In this document: in pieces, positions 40,101 to 52,100 of the stretch
Layout: every line of letters begins with the position of its first letter
Numbering within the stretch: position 1 is the stretch's first letter
Origin: Pecten maximus
Lineage: Eukaryota
Direction of reading: 5' to 3'
Length of the DNA: 64,000 nucleotides
Assembly: GCF_902652985.1 (NCBI RefSeq)
Contig: NC_047032.1
Location: 17,236,001-17,300,000 of the forward strand
Made by a program: the position numbers

Positions 40101-43100
40101 AGGGGTGGAGATGATTATGTATTAAATGGGGTGACGGAATGAAAGTTTGATAACTTAAGTATACAGGATTTTGCAAAATTTAGGAAGAACAATGGGAGAA
40201 CTTTGAAGGATAGAGAGACAGCTCTCATGGACGGGGAAGGGAGAACACGTAGGGTTAGAGGAAAGAGGACAATAAGCAGACGGCGAGAGTGGAAGGAGTG
40301 GAGGTAGCAGATATACAACCATTGAGTACTTATTAACTGTCTACAAATGTAAACCTAACAATAAACTGTCACCATATATACAAAAATAGTGTTGTGTCAC
40401 CGGCTTCTGATGTTGTAAGACATTGTTGCTCAAAGTGAACACTAAACTTATTATATACTAGGAGACTTTGACGTTCAGAGAGCCGTAAACATGACCCTGA
40501 TAGTTTAAGGTATTGAGGCTCCACTAGGATAACGTACTTGATCCTGATGATGTTTGACTTTAACGCTAATGAACAAACGCTTACATATTCCTGATGATGT
40601 GTGTTGACGCCATTTTAAAAACACATACGTTATATCCTGATATTTTAAGGCGTTGATTTTCACTTGTTAACAGCTACATGTACATGATCCTGATTTTGAC
40701 TTTGACGTTCTCTTTAAAAAGCTTATATTATCATGATGATGTAATGATTAGACGCGCGCGTGCAAACACTTACATGATCCTGATATGACTTTGACGGTGA
40801 AGTCTGTAGAAGAAGGGTCAGACGCCCCTAGTAAACACGTGACAGTATCAGATGGTGATGCATCACTTGTCACAATCGTGTGAAGAAGATTCTCAGTTGA
40901 CGTCGTTTCGGTCACATACCCGTAGGTAGGCAGGCTTGTAGTAAATGGTTTCTGAAAACATATTCACAACAGGAACATATTTATATAGATTTAACTATTT
41001 TCTAACTGTAAATTCTTGTCATTGTAAACAATGTTCATATAATGCAATGTATGCGATCAGATCCGTCCTTAAAGAGCTGTCCGATAAAATGTGAATATTT
41101 GCACTACACAGTACACTTTTAAGGAGTGTGGACGGCTGATCCTTGTGGGTCTAGAACCAGGTCAAAAGCGCATTAATGGGTGAATCATATATTGACGTAT
41201 CAATTACATAGATGTAAATATAGATGCAAATGTATTAGCAAATTTTTGTTTAGTCAAATGATTTTGGTACACTCGTCACACAGAGGTTATAAGAAAAAAT
41301 AAATATAAGCTCCACGGAATATTTAAATATCTAACCTCTGTCAACTGTTGTTAATATTAAACTCGGGAATTCCATTTATGGGAAAAGAACTGAAGAGTAC
41401 GGTTGTGCATGCTTTCATAATGTCTTTGAGGTGAATGCAATAGATATGTACAAAGCTAAAATGTCCATAAGATGAAACAAATATTATCAGAACGGTTTGA
41501 AAGTTTCCTTCATCATCGAGAATACTTCTTTATCTTGATATATTTATCTTTTTCTGGTGTAATATATGAGTGCTGCAGTTATATTTGTCTTCAAATAATC
41601 AATTTAATTTCCAATTGTTTTACATGATATACATACCGCATTTTCAATAGTTATGTTAAGTTGAGAAGTGCCACTGTACCCGTCGTTATCCACAACTTGA
41701 AACTCTAGAACGTAAATTCCGGATGTCGGATTTGAGAGAACTTTTACATCAACTAAAATAAAGAATGAAAAAAATCATACATCATTGCCGGTGTTAAGAC
41801 AATATTTCTCGATCAGAAAAAAAAAGAAGAAAAAAAACAGAAAGAAAAATAAGCATACCTGATGTAACTACATTCGGAACGTATGTGATTCTGATTCTAT
41901 CGTTTTTATCTAAAGTGGATGCATCATTATTTGCATCCTGAAGAAACTGTATTGTTTTTAGTCTCTATTGATTTGTATGTAACTTAAGGCCTTATAAGCG
42001 GTTACCTTTAGGGGACTGTGAATATTTCGCATGCTTTTCATTTCTCGTTCCTTTTTCTCTCTCTCTAAAAACCAGCGCATGCGCCTAAATCCAGCCATAC
42101 ATAAAAACACGGAAATATTTGATGTAGCCACAATTTCACATATTTGTTTTGGTTATAATTTAACAAGTGATAAAAACTAGATAAAAAAAAACTGCTTTAT
42201 TATCGATAAGAACCACAGCCTTGTTACATGAGCCATGTATGTTATTGTAAAATGATGTGGAAGGATTTTCTCTAAATATAATTACTTCTATTTGGAACGT
42301 TGAATCTTTCCCAAAAATGAAGGTTTCTGCACATCATGTAAAAGAGTTTCCAATAACTCACTAGAAAATATGATATCCGTCCTTCTACCATAACAATGCT
42401 GATTCACAAGTTCTAATTTTCAAATCCTTATACAATCCAAATTCCTTCTTTGTGAACACCACATTACCTTATCAAGGAGACATCAATGAGCTATTGAGTT
42501 ATTTTCTCTTAAGAAACATTTGATGTTGTTTCTCTTTTAAAGGGCATTTTAGAAATATTTCAATCATTTCTTGTCTATCTTACTTCCTTACTTACGTGTC
42601 ACTGGATCTAATTCGAAGTACGAAGATGAAGATGTCATAGTTGTAGTCATCGTGCCGCCGTCGGGGTCCGTCACTGTGAGGCGTACTACAGTTGTCCCTA
42701 CAGATGTGGTGTCCGGCAGGGTGGATATTGTAGGGGAACCACTGAATGTTGGCGTAACAGCACTCAGACTAAGCACCGTGACCGATAATGTAGCAGCTGC
42801 CGTATTTGAGCAGTCATCAGTTGTCTGAAAAGTCAAGCTGTAACTTCCCGCCGGAACGGTGGAAGACACCATTATTTCCACTAGAATGTAGAATATATTT
42901 TAACCAGTAAGTAAATATTCTTTAACATTTGCTTCAAATTTATATTTTCGCTTACATTTTCATAGATAAACAGCTAGCCAGCCAGCTGACCTGATACAGC
43001 AGAAAGAGTCAACAAACAAACCGGCCGAGGTTACACTAACTGCCATGACAACTAAGAGTTCATATATAGGGGTTGCTATGCTTTCATAATGATAGAAAAC

Positions 43101-49100: not shown

Positions 49101-52100
49101 ATAGGAATTAATCAAGATTTGAATAATTTAATGCACTTTGCAAAATATCGTGTCACAGTAAAAATGTTATAGACGTTCGATTAAACCAATACATGGGTTA
49201 TATTCATTCGAAAAAGTCATCAACCAGGCGCAGAGATTTTTGCGTTCATAATTCCACGTATCCAACTCATCAAAAGTCTATAATTGTATACGATCACTCA
49301 CGTGAAGACGTGTCAAACGAAAAGTAAGAGGAAGATGACGTCATCACTGTGCTGAGCGTGCCGCCGTCTGTGTCGGACACTGTGAGTGTGGATACTGTAG
49401 TTCCGACAGCTTCCGATGTAGATATGGAGGCAGTCGGAGAGGCGTCGGAGAAGGTCGGTGTGGCAGAGCCAGCACACGGATCAGCGACAGTCACTGTTAG
49501 CGTGGCTGTCGCTGTGTTTGCGCATCTGTCGGTGACTTTGAATTCCAAACTGTAGGTATTGGCCGGCGGTGTAGTCAGTACGCTGACTTCAACTAAAACA
49601 CACAAAAAAAAAAAAATAAAAATAAAAAAAAATACTGATGTTAACGAAATCGTATTATTACACAAACGTGATCAGAACAAGTGTAAGGCTTAATGTGAAG
49701 ATTATTAACGATTACATGATTAATGTGTTGATATTCCGAAAACAAATCTTTCATATTTACAGTCTAGCAATATAGTTTCTTAAGTTACCGATTAGAGATA
49801 ACAGACAAACACACAAACATACAATGAAAACGTTAAACGGGGTTTTTCAAATTATGTGTTTAATGTGACGAAAATAGATCGTTTTTTCTCCACGTAAAGA
49901 TTTTATCACACAGATAAATTAAAAAAAATCACTAATTAGATATTCACGAATTGTTGATATAATTTACGACCATATAATAAGTTAACATGAGTCGCCTGTT
50001 CATTTAATCCCACATACATTGTACTATTGTCCTGCAAAAAGAGTGCAAGAATAGGCTCTGCTGTCCGCACCAGTTTATTGACAATATATTTAATTGAATC
50101 TTCATCTCTTTCGACAACTGATTTGCGCCCTTTGCCTATGTGACGATAAGTACTGAAGGATATACCCGGGAAACGAAGTTAAATCCTTCTCGTGTCAATG
50201 CAGTTAAATACCACTTATTGTTTTGTCTCGTTTTGTTACATAATACGTGTTGGCATTGATGTCATATTCTAGAAAGCTACACCTCATAACTTTAAAACTA
50301 AAATGCGCTTGTAAATTGACAAACTATAACACATACGATCTTCGAGTGCAGTGTTTATTTAACATAATGCGTTCAGCGAGAAATGAGCTAAAAGAAATCA
50401 AGCCCTAACATGTACGTCTACAACACAGATTATACTCTTACGTATGGAATCGTCGAAACTGAAGTAGGGCGAACTCGTTGTCATCTCGGTTGACAGGATA
50501 TCGCCATCAACATCTGATACTGTGACGGTAAACACACTAGTTCCGGCCGTAACACTGTCAGAAACACTGACTGAACCATCCAAATTGGAAAATGTTGGTA
50601 AATTGGTTGGTACTGTGAAAGACGTGAAAGACATTGTATACTTTGTTAGAATGCAATAAAACGTAGAAGGCGTTGTTTTGGCAGTTTTGTTTTACTTTTT
50701 AGCAACCTGCAGATGATTTTGTTCATATGCAAGTTCACAATTCAGTTTGTTTGATATTATCGTATAAGTTACAAAGTGTCTCTGCCCCGGAAATAAATAT
50801 AAATGTCTTCCTTTTGTTTAACTTTTTTGTTAACATTTTTATTCCTTACGTATATTATACTTCTTATATACTTAAAAAATAAAGAAAGGTCATCAAGGTT
50901 TGAAATGGTGGTAACTATGTCAGGTTTTAATAAAATAAAGTAAATGAGGTCAACTGTTGAAGTAGGATATCTGCTTGAGGGCGCTTAAATGCCGACTAAA
51001 ATCCTAGATTTTGTGTAATGTACAAGACATGTGATGGTCATGTCTCTACGAAGGAACGTTAGTATGAACACTATTGGCTAGGTCTACAGCATTACAACTC
51101 AGACAAATCTGGTTCGACTTCCATCGGATATGCCCCCCAAGATCACCATACGACCCCACCCAAATCAGTGACACTGGGCTACACAGAAGTCTGCGAAGAG
51201 TTCATTCCGACGTCGCCATACTTGCTGACTCCGATCAAAAATCAAAATCTCGACTCATTGGTGAAATAAGCATAACGTCCCTCCGCCATAAGCGCCATAG
51301 TCGGTGTCGCCGAGCCCAACCGACGCGACCAGTGCAATGACGTCACCTTAAAACGGGACATATGTCAGGCCTCCTCGCAAACATTCGATGACGTCGCAGC
51401 CTGTTACGGATGGTCTGGCTGCTTACCCGTCGATCAAATGAATTCCTTGTTGCTACGGTTGCAGGGCAAAAGTGATTTCAAAGATCCCAAAGCCATACGA
51501 GACGGTCTTCACGAGGGGTGGTTATTCGTGATCGGCCGCTCATTGGACCCCCGGGTGTTTTATTGGTAGCGTTTGAACCTTGCTATGTATTACATACCGT
51601 CTTTTTGTTACAGCAAAACCGCCTTGCAATCTTGTGTTGCCTTAATCCGACTTGGATCATGCCATTAGCCCCCACCCCCTCTTTTTTCTTTCGGGAGACG
51701 CGGCATCGCATCAATCTCAATACAATTCTAAACCAAATGATTTTTCAAGAGATAAAGGTTTTGAGATCGTGCATAAAGCGTTTAATAAAATTTCAACTGG
51801 AAAAAAGGCCAGTGAAAAAAATTAGTTTTTTTTCTAAAACACAATGATTTAATTCCACGCATGACTGATTTCAATAAAAATGTTGGCAACTAATCCAAAT
51901 ATTAGTACAAAACACAATACTAAATAAAAAAATATCTGGATGACCCATCAACATTTGATGTATGGCAAAGTAACTTGATAACCTTTCTTTATTTGTTAAA
52001 CAAACAACAGACAAAGTCTATGAAAGCCCCTTTACACTCTCCTCTTGATTTGGATAAAGATATTATGTATTTTGTTTTTGTTTTTTGTTTTGTTTTGTTT

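What the first reader, a model, noticed from the sequence alone, without database searches (positions are those of the whole stretch)
42596..49592. Expandable exon cassette: six phase-1 exons, each straddling two cadherin domains
Seen: six consecutive exons (291, 294 x4 and 285 nt) are all phase 1-1. Each encodes the C-half of one repeat plus the N-half of the next, so skipping, losing or gaining any unit preserves both frame and domain register. All have intact splice sites. Inference: ectodomain length could be tuned in one-domain steps by exon skipping or copy-number polymorphism, acting as an adjustable spacer for the N-terminal head.
Basis: partly seen in the sequence, partly recalled or inferred. 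Interest (0 to 1): 0.72.

Follow-up and report, generated by a model that had tools for sequence, protein, structure and literature searches.

The report
Tandem duplicated cadherin-like exons, scallop gene
Six neighbouring exons of a king-scallop cell-surface gene are recent tandem copies that each add one near-identical cadherin-like domain, and related scallops carry different numbers of them: an ordinary way for repeat proteins to grow, here in an unusually clean example.

Summary
On the minus strand there are six AG..GT exons of 291, 294, 294, 294, 294 and 285 nt, all phase 1-1. Each encodes the last three strands of one cadherin-like domain, the linker, and the first four strands of the next.

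The window is Pecten maximus. A public model named 'cadherin-23-like' (1518 aa) contains all six exons in series.

- **Origin:** the array arose by tandem duplication of exon-plus-intron units.
- **Selection:** exons 2-4 encode identical peptides, and all 11 variable sites among them are synonymous. Each copy is therefore under purifying selection.
- **Copy number:** orthologous gene models hold 5 units (Mizuhopecten), 6 (Pecten), 7 (Argopecten) and 7 (Ylistrum). Edge units are positional orthologues, while inner units group by species.

Evolutionary copy-number change in one-domain steps is supported. Regulated exon skipping and a 'tunable spacer' function remain untested. I class this as a new member of a known kind (intragenic tandem exon duplication), of modest interest.

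The parts
49302..49592 (-). E1, 291 nt, phase 1-1. First unit of the array. Its first ~110 nt (C-half of domain 1) are 64% identical to the inner units. Its last 184 nt are 96-97% identical to E2-E4 and 94% to E5.
   Evidence: positional orthologue in 4 species (support 84/89)
46825..47118 (-). E2, 294 nt, phase 1-1. Inner unit; its peptide is identical to those of E3 and E4.
45648..45941 (-). E3, 294 nt, phase 1-1. Inner unit.
44691..44984 (-). E4, 294 nt, phase 1-1. Inner unit.
43542..43835 (-). E5, 294 nt, phase 1-1. Inner unit; 4 amino-acid differences from E2-E4, all in the N-half of the next domain.
42596..42880 (-). E6, 285 nt, phase 1-1. Last unit; 36% amino-acid identity to the inner units. 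It lacks the linker cysteine.
   Evidence: positional orthologue in 4 species (support 100/100)
42988..49518 (-). Extent of detectable DNA self-similarity of the array (exons plus introns 1-5). It starts inside E1 and ends in intron 5, about 107 nt upstream of E6.
   Evidence: (self-BLAST)
47636..49031 (-). About 1.4 kb present only in intron 1 (intron 1 is 2183 nt; the others are 661-883 nt). Probably an insertion; nature not determined.
   Evidence: homology of intron 1 to the other introns is limited to its first ~270 and last ~520 nt
50442..50688 (-). Exon upstream of the array (N-half of domain 1), ending in phase 1. The public model starts it at 50688. An orthologue-like acceptor lies just before 50612.
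41637..41752 (-). Exon downstream of the array (C-half of the last array domain), 116 nt, phase 1-0.
25821..57363 (-). Part of the gene held in the window (residues 21-1518 of the public model P0001), in 23 matched exon pieces. It comprises an orphan N-terminal head, cadherin-like domains, a transmembrane segment and a short tail.
   Evidence: residues 1-20 not found in the window

Best explanation
The six exons are a tandem array inside one scallop gene. The window matches the Pecten maximus protein named 'cadherin-23-like', a type I membrane protein with an orphan N-terminal head, a chain of cadherin-like domains, one transmembrane helix and a short tail.

An ancestral exon carried the C-half of one domain, the linker and the N-half of the next. 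It was copied together with its downstream intron by unequal recombination. Because the unit is 294 nt and phase 1-1, every gain or loss adds or removes exactly one domain.

The inner copies keep being homogenised within each species, and their number drifts or is selected between species (3, 4, 5 and 5 inner units in four scallops). The first and last units stay put.

All six exons are spliced in constitutively and translated. The result is a membrane-distal stalk of five nearly identical, probably calcium-independent domains.

Shown here: the anatomy, the duplication of exon plus intron, purifying selection on each copy, copy-number difference between species, and clustering of inner units by species.

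Inferred: that recombination is still active within the species, that stalk length matters for the head, and that the two cysteines of each unit staple neighbouring domains.
For: - **Exon anatomy:**
- **Identity with the public model:** 100% identity of E2 to P0001, which contains E1-E6 in order.
- **Introns were copied with the exons:** introns 2-4 are homologous end to end, with mismatch-only K of 0.09-0.145. This is the same order as the exon dS of 0.065-0.121, and both have the same ranking, with the E3/E4 and I3/I4 pairs closest.
- **Purifying selection:** dN = 0 among E2-E4. All 11 of 11 variable sites are synonymous, with probability about 7e-7 under 27.6% synonymous sites.
- **Copy number between species:** 5, 6, 7 and 7 units.
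- **Tree of 25 units:** last units form a clade at 100/100 and first units at 84/89. Inner units split by species with supports 95/94, 92/85, 93/89 and 93/94.
- **Homogenisation at the array edges:** synonymous divergence of the E1 3' part (0.06-0.10) and of E5 (0.10-0.15) from the inner exons is 2-4 times lower than that of their flanking introns (0.24-0.32).
- **Domain register:**
- **Linker:** it reads DPCAGSATPTF where solved cadherins have DxNDNxP.
- **Published background:** cadherin genes in general have fewer exon junctions in linkers than expected (PMC1553488, passages read).
Against: - **No transcript data:** constitutive inclusion rests on a predicted public model and on the selection argument. 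Selection shows the copies are translated, not that every copy is in every mRNA.
- **Counts come from gene models:** the models are from assemblies of differing quality. The Ylistrum model has two truncated units and the Argopecten model is N-terminally truncated. A collapsed repeat in a short-read assembly would lower a count.
- **Clustering by species is ambiguous:** independent recent duplication in each lineage explains it as well as concerted evolution does. The two are not separated here.
- **The edge-homogenisation argument is thin:** it rests on 3-11 synonymous differences per comparison.
- **One model does skip exons:** M. yessoensis model P0005 skips from unit 1 to the exon after the array.
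- **Cysteine parity is imperfect:** the rest of the P. maximus ectodomain has an odd cysteine count.
Confidence: 0.8

Rival explanations
1. The cassette is used dynamically: regulated skipping of one or more of the six exons, or copy-number polymorphism between individuals, sets the length of the stalk and so how far the head projects.
For: - Any subset of the exons can be skipped without a frame or register shift.
- The halves that would be joined are identical or nearly so among E1(3')-E5.
- Model P0005 of M. yessoensis joins unit 1 to the post-array exon. The resulting hybrid domain is predicted as a seven-strand sandwich at pLDDT 54-73.
- Copy number differs between species.
- Introns at 86-91% identity offer substrate for unequal crossing-over.
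Against: - Only 1 of the 6 proteins found is from P. maximus. It has all six exons and no isoform label.
- All six donors are close to consensus (5 GTGAGT, 1 GTAAGT) with pyrimidine-rich acceptors, which is typical of constitutive exons.
- P0005 is a gene prediction with other evident errors at its N-terminus.
- No population or transcript data were available.
Confidence: 0.15
2. The copy-number differences are neutral. Unequal crossing-over adds and removes units, and selection only requires that each unit fold. Stalk length within the observed range has no functional meaning.
For: - The range is narrow (3-5 inner units in 4 species).
- There is no sign of diversifying selection: dN/dS is 0 to about 0.2 among E2-E5.
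- Tandem exon duplication is common in animal genes; about 10% of genes is the figure quoted in PMC9013439 (Introduction read).
Against: - Adjacent domains at 96-100% identity are said to be disfavoured in large multidomain proteins unless length variability is useful (abstract of PMC8201768).
- The strict conservation of the peptide in three copies shows that the units are not junk. It does not, however, address whether length matters.
Confidence: 0.35
3. The duplicated exons form a mutually exclusive cluster. Only one of E2-E5 enters each mRNA, as in Dscam or CadN.
For: The exons are tandem, homologous and equal in length, which is the usual origin of mutually exclusive exons (PMC9013439, Introduction read).
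Against: - E2, E3 and E4 encode the same peptide, so a choice among them would produce no diversity.
- Their length is a multiple of three, so joint inclusion is in frame.
- The public models of all four species include the units in series.
Confidence: 0.03
4. The array is an assembly artefact, either a false expansion or a collapse of a repeat.
For: Tandem near-identical units of about 1 kb are a known source of assembly error. This is general knowledge, with no call behind it.
Against: - The units differ by substitutions and large indels: introns of 2183, 883, 663, 855 and 661 nt, and 11 variable exon sites among E2-E4.
- There is no N in the window.
- Three other species show the same architecture.
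Confidence: 0.03

Closest known systems
Intragenic tandem exon-unit expansion in repeat-domain genes, classically the LPA kringle IV type 2 repeat (5.6-kb unit, more than 40 protein isoforms; PMC6314250, only the start of the abstract seen in the listing)
   Same: An exon-plus-intron unit is repeated head to tail inside a gene. The copies are highly similar and frame-preserving. Each unit adds one protein domain, and copy number is not fixed.
   Different: - The unit here is one exon that is offset by half a domain, not two exons per kringle.
- Variation is shown only between species, not between individuals.
- The range is 3-5 inner units, not tens.
- It occurs in a membrane cadherin-like protein of a mollusc.
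Bacterial Periscope Proteins (PMC8201768; abstract and opening text read)
   Same: A tandem array of highly similar folded domains lies between an N-terminal head and a C-terminal anchor. DNA identity favours intragenic recombination, and repeat number sets the projected length. Adjacent domains are far more alike than is usual.
   Different: - This gene is eukaryotic and split by introns, with recombination substrates in introns as well as exons.
- A rod-like shape, a ligand for the head and within-species length variation are all unshown.
- The likeness is in how it may work, not in family membership.
Cadherin superfamily genes with introns inside EC domains (PMC1553488: cadherin linkers hold significantly fewer exon junctions than expected; passages read)
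   Same: The introns interrupt the domain rather than the linker, so the exons straddle domain boundaries. The same intradomain position (after F-x-x-D-x-x-x) recurs at other junctions of this gene, for example residues 1147/1148 and 1045/1046 of P0001.
   Different: - The repeated domains lack the DxNDN and DRE calcium motifs and carry two cysteines instead.
- They score below the Pfam cut-off when taken singly.
Mutually exclusive exon clusters born of tandem exon duplication (Dscam1, CadN; PMC9013439, Introduction read)
   Same: Origin by tandem exon duplication, with equal exon length.
   Different: The copies encode identical peptides and are used in series in the public models. There is no evidence of exclusive choice.
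Symmetric phase 1-1 module exons of extracellular proteins (exon-shuffling rule of Patthy; selectin consensus repeats that differ in number between species). Recalled, no call.
   Same: Phase 1-1 symmetry lets a module be inserted, duplicated or skipped in frame. In selectins the repeats act as a stalk under a lectin head.
   Different: There one exon equals one domain. Here one exon equals two half-domains, which gives the same protein-level result only because the neighbours are near-identical.

Membership tests
Cadherin superfamily (Pfam PF00028) | Match to the Cadherin profile at or above the gathering score (28.8 bits) | tested here: inconclusive
   The whole public protein P0001 scores 139.5 bits with 6 stretches, the best at residues 1100-1185, which is outside the array. 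Single array exons score 19.2-23.1 bits. One whole array-type domain from the M. yessoensis orthologue scores 21.7 bits, aligned to profile positions 2-93 of 93. The protein is therefore a member, while the array domains alone are below threshold.
Cadherin superfamily (Pfam PF00028) | Seven-strand beta-sandwich EC fold in tandem | tested here: met
   The AlphaFold model of P0005 shows strands at 62-142 and 159-239 (seven each) at pLDDT 70-87 and 54-73. The rest of the model is unusable, with a mean pLDDT of 39.7. Sequence matches to solved cadherin ECs include CELSR1 at 2.6e-9 and PCDH10 at 1.3e-5.
Cadherin superfamily (Pfam PF00028) | Calcium-binding linker motifs (DxNDNxP, DRE). The motif definitions are recalled. 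| tested here: not met
   The array linkers read DPCAGSATPTF and, in E6, LSLSAVTPTF. They align opposite the D-x-N-D-N-x-P stretch of solved cadherins. One membrane-proximal linker is canonical (INDINDNYP).
Cadherin-23 (the name given by the source) | Long ectodomain of 27 ECs with an EC1 tip. This is recalled. | tested here: not met
   P0001 is 1518 aa, and its first ~190 residues match no Pfam family. The name comes from automatic annotation. CDH23 chains are only weak matches, with E-values of 0.0023 and worse.
Intragenic tandem exon-unit array with variable copy number (LPA KIV-2 kind) | An exon-plus-intron unit repeated head to tail with high identity, preserving the reading frame | tested here: met
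Intragenic tandem exon-unit array with variable copy number (LPA KIV-2 kind) | Copy number differs between individuals | not testable with these tools
   No second P. maximus genome or read set was available. Between species the gene models hold 5, 6, 7 and 7 units.
Mutually exclusive exon cluster | Exactly one exon of the cluster in each transcript, with the alternatives differing in sequence | tested here: not met
   E2, E3 and E4 encode identical peptides. The public models include the units in series. Transcript usage itself could not be tested.
Periscope Proteins (considered for function only) | Array of highly similar domains between an N-terminal binding head and a C-terminal anchor, with length varying between strains | tested here: inconclusive
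   Domain identity of 96-100% among four units, plus a head and a transmembrane anchor, are present. The head's function and within-species variation are unknown. The class is defined for bacteria.

The most novel reading that the evidence does not exclude
This gene is a eukaryotic counterpart of the bacterial Periscope Proteins: a scallop surface protein whose membrane-distal stalk is built from identical, calcium-free cadherin-like domains.

Each domain is stapled to the next by a disulfide between the linker cysteine of one exon and the F-G-loop cysteine of the following exon. Every exon therefore carries one half of each of two staples, so gaining, losing or skipping an exon keeps the frame, the domain register and the cysteine pairing.

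Stalk length would then vary between individuals or tissues and set the reach of an orphan N-terminal head.
Probability: 0.1. Interest if true: 0.6.

Novelty: new member of a known kind. Interest (0 to 1): 0.3.

Why it matters
The locus is a clean, datable example of how an adhesion-type protein grows by one domain at a time.

- **Offset unit:** the duplicated unit is offset by half a domain, which shows that exon boundaries need not match domain boundaries for modular growth.
- **Three signals in one place:** the locus combines three signals that are usually seen separately: strict peptide conservation with only synonymous change, homogenisation within species, and copy-number change between species.
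- **If length varies within the species:** it would be an accessible animal model for how stalk length affects the function of a surface receptor.
- **Practical point for annotators:** short reads cannot count these exons, and gene models of this family differ for that reason.

Tried and rejected
- **Tandem Repeats Finder** missed the array because its longest period is 500. Self-BLAST found it.
- **The N-terminal head** got no family or fold:
  - Pfam on the four head exons found only a chance-level hit (Ntox24, E 0.061).
  - Pfam on the whole of P0001 gave nothing in residues 1-190.
  - The ESM Atlas gave scores of 0.87 to unnamed clusters, below the level at which a hit counts as more than a lead.
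  - A word-based search of shorter proteins scored 283 candidates and found none at E <= 0.001.
  - AlphaFold with a 3-row alignment gave pLDDT 35.1, which is unusable, so no fold search was run.
- **AlphaFold of the 875-aa orthologue model** gave a usable result only for residues 52-240, so the cysteine-staple idea could not be checked.
- **Rfam and tRNA scans** of the whole window found nothing.
- **Plus-strand ORFs** over the exons (for example 43568-43888) mirror the coding frame and have no support of their own.
- **Literature:** searches for 'Pecten maximus' with 'cadherin' found 34 papers, and none of the 15 listed is about this gene. 'Tandem exon duplication' with 'cadherin' found 5 papers, none on molluscs. 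I found nothing in print on this locus in those two searches.
- **Not searched or not available:**
  - Genome contigs holds only bacteria and archaea and was not used.
  - No eukaryotic genome, read or transcript collection was available.
  - No supplementary files were consulted.

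
Full report
**How the searches were done.** The window's exons were searched one by one, as window references. Every statement about the whole protein rests on a public record that a search returned: P0001, named by its source 'cadherin-23-like [Pecten maximus]'. The window is not human. It has no N, a G+C content of about 35%, and exon E2 is 100% identical to that scallop protein.

| Exon | Window coordinates | Length (nt) |
|---|---|---|
| E1 | 49592-49302 | 291 |
| E2 | 47118-46825 | 294 |
| E3 | 45941-45648 | 294 |
| E4 | 44984-44691 | 294 |
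| E5 | 43835-43542 | 294 |
| E6 | 42880-42596 | 285 |

- All six have an AG acceptor after a pyrimidine-rich tract. Five have a GTGAGT donor and one has GTAAGT.
- All six are phase 1-1 and open in that frame.
One ends at 50442 and the other spans 41752-41637.

**Domain register.**
- Exon by exon, Pfam's Cadherin profile positions 2-34 of 93 match exon residues 53/54-85/86. The C-terminal ends of several Ig-like and PKD-like profiles match exon residues about 5-36. All these hits are below the curated cut-offs; Cadherin scores 19.2-23.1 bits against 28.8.
- A search of E2 against solved structures returned 56 chains at E <= 10, nearly all cadherins. The best were CELSR1 8vy2 (2.6e-9) and PCDH10 6vfq (1.3e-5).
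- Those alignments place exon residues 22-36 on the last strand of one EC, 'DPCAGSATPTF' on the DxNDNxP linker, and residues 45-80 on the start of the next EC.
- An AlphaFold model of the 875-aa M. yessoensis model P0005, with a five-row alignment, is poor overall (mean pLDDT 39.7). It is usable for residues 52-240 (70-87, then 54-73).
- In that usable stretch there are two seven-strand sandwiches, at 62-142 and 159-239, joined by a linker at 143-158. The exon-junction equivalents at 105/106 and 202/203 lie between the fourth and fifth strands.
- One whole domain in domain register, taken from the M. yessoensis orthologue, aligns to Cadherin profile positions 2-93 of 93 at 21.7 bits.

This is normal for the family: cadherin linkers hold significantly fewer exon junctions than expected (PMC1553488, passages read). 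The same intradomain intron position recurs at other junctions of this gene.

**What the array is.** The introns are not unrelated.
- Introns 2, 3 and 4 (883, 663 and 855 nt) align end to end. Mismatch-only identity is 86-91% and K is 0.09-0.145, with large indels.
- Introns 1 and 5 align in part, with K of 0.24-0.32 to introns 2-4.
- The introns outside the array show no similarity to these.
- DNA self-similarity runs from 49518, inside E1, to 42988, in intron 5.

The unit of duplication was therefore exon plus intron, about 0.95-1.2 kb. E1 is a mosaic: its first ~110 nt are 64% identical to the inner exons, while its last 184 nt, which begin at the domain linker, are 96-97% identical to E2-E4 and 94% to E5.

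**Selection.**
- E2, E3 and E4 encode the same 97 residues. They differ at 11 nucleotide columns, all of them synonymous. dS is 0.065-0.121 and dN is 0. The chance of this is about 7e-7 if 27.6% of sites are synonymous.
- E5 differs by 4 residues, giving dN/dS of about 0.13-0.2.
- Synonymous divergence among the inner exons is of the same order as divergence of their introns and has the same ranking. That fits simple duplication followed by strict protein-level constraint on every copy.
- At the edges the two measures disagree. The E1 3' part (dS 0.06-0.10) and E5 (dS 0.10-0.15) are 2-4 times closer to the inner exons than their introns are. Binomial tails are 0.0003-0.04, from small counts. 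This suggests exon-limited gene conversion.

**Comparison between species.** searched proteins of 171-2000 aa and found 6 hits:
- one from P. maximus (P0001, 1518 aa);
- A. irradians P0002 (1367 aa, N-terminally truncated);
- Y. balloti P0003 (1350 aa, partial);
- two M. yessoensis models, P0004 (1329 aa) and P0005 (875 aa);
- a distant Fat4-like protein, P0006.

I split P0001-P0004 at the junction motif and left P0005 and P0006 out of the unit tree. The split gives 6, 7, 7 and 5 units, that is, 4, 5, 5 and 3 inner units. Two Ylistrum units are truncated to 63 residues in that model.

In a maximum-likelihood tree of all 25 units, the last units form a clade (100/100) and the first units form a clade (84/89). 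The inner units split by species, with supports 95/94, 92/85, 93/89 and 93/94. This is the pattern expected for unequal crossing-over and gene conversion in the middle of a tandem array with anchored edges. Independent recent duplication in each lineage would look the same.

**Exon skipping.** I found no evidence for it and could not test it.
- The single P. maximus protein includes all six exons and has no isoform label.
- The cluster look-up that might have listed isoforms was switched off.
But it is a prediction with a spurious N-terminus, so it is only a lead.
- A mutually exclusive cluster is unlikely, because three of the alternatives would give the same peptide.

**The protein.** P0001 maps to the window from 57363 down to 25821 in 23 matched exon pieces. 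Residues 1-20 were not found in the window. The protein has these parts:
- a hydrophobic N-terminus;
- a head of about 165 residues that is 78% identical in Ylistrum and that no tool could classify;
- the array;
- further cadherin-like domains, including one canonical INDINDNYP linker;
- a transmembrane helix, seen in the orthologue model at residues 769-793;
- a short tail.

The whole protein scores 139.5 bits against the Cadherin profile.

The array-type repeat has 396 relatives at E <= 0.001 among 1.84 billion representatives, but only 4 at E <= 1e-30. The close family is therefore narrow.

**Cysteines.** Each unit carries two cysteines, 'DDC' before the last strand and 'DPC' just after it. 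The last unit lacks the second one in all four species, and the head has three cysteines.
- In the model the two cysteines flank an 11-residue strand, so they cannot reach each other within one domain.
- Pairing of the linker cysteine of unit n with the loop cysteine of unit n+1 would fit the counts. This is inference, not shown here.
- The rest of the P. maximus ectodomain has an odd cysteine count, which weakens the parity argument.
- Six of the 148 representative-library proteins P0007-P0154 examined carry the same D-x-C...(D/N)PC pattern two or more times. At least five of these six look like bacterial PKD-repeat proteins, by their WNFGDG-type motifs as I read them.

**Verdict.** The anatomy is real and correctly described. 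It is an intragenic tandem exon-plus-intron duplication in a scallop cadherin-like gene. The copies are under purifying selection and are homogenised within species, and the unit count differs between related species.

This is a known kind of thing. Tandem exon duplication affects about a tenth of animal genes according to the work quoted in PMC9013439, and LPA KIV-2 is the classic variable case (PMC6314250, listing only).

The functional idea resembles bacterial Periscope Proteins (PMC8201768), but no data here show that length is regulated or matters.

Scores: novelty, new member of a known kind; interest 0.3.

Noticed in passing
window 2502-8696: A 6.2-kb satellite of a 28-bp unit (CTAGTACTAAAGTAATCACTGTACACTC), with 221 copies at 87% matches. 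It has a strong negative GC skew of -0.26 to -0.36.
   Followed up: partly
window 50612-50688 and 52177-52190 (minus strand): The public model P0001 has 28 residues at the head/first-domain junction that the Ylistrum and Mizuhopecten orthologues lack. An orthologue-like join would use a GC donor after ...GATCCAG and the AG acceptor just before 50612. That join gives ...LDPVPTNLPTF and makes this exon 171 nt and phase 1-1 as well. I could not find canonical boundaries that reproduce the public model.
   Followed up: partly
window 47636-49031 (minus strand, intron 1): About 1.4 kb that the paralogous introns lack. It is probably an insertion after the duplication. No protein family or repeat partner was looked for beyond the window's self-comparison.
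   Followed up: no
window 27621-28368 (minus strand): Open frames in an intron of the gene with a weak match to the endonuclease-reverse transcriptase family (PF14529, E 0.0015, below the cut-off). This is probably a decayed non-LTR retroelement.
   Followed up: partly
window 31677-31862 and 62298-62483: A 186-bp dispersed repeat at 95% identity. One copy lies in an intron of the gene and the other upstream of it. Its open frames match no Pfam family.
   Followed up: partly
window 18336-18744 and 13224-13505: Two further tandem arrays: a 40-bp unit with 10.2 copies at 97% matches, and a 54-bp unit with 5.3 copies at 78% matches.
   Followed up: no
proteins P0013, P0020, P0022, P0073, P0125 (representative library, no names): Long proteins that look like bacterial PKD-repeat proteins carry the same two-cysteine spacing (D-D/N-C ... 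D/N-P-C) at each repeat end as the scallop units do. This may point to a shared way of stapling tandem beta-sandwich domains.
   Followed up: partly
protein P0004 residues about 1140-1205 (M. yessoensis RefSeq model): A stretch of about 65 residues before the transmembrane segment is absent from the other orthologues. It looks like retained intron sequence in that gene model.
   Followed up: no
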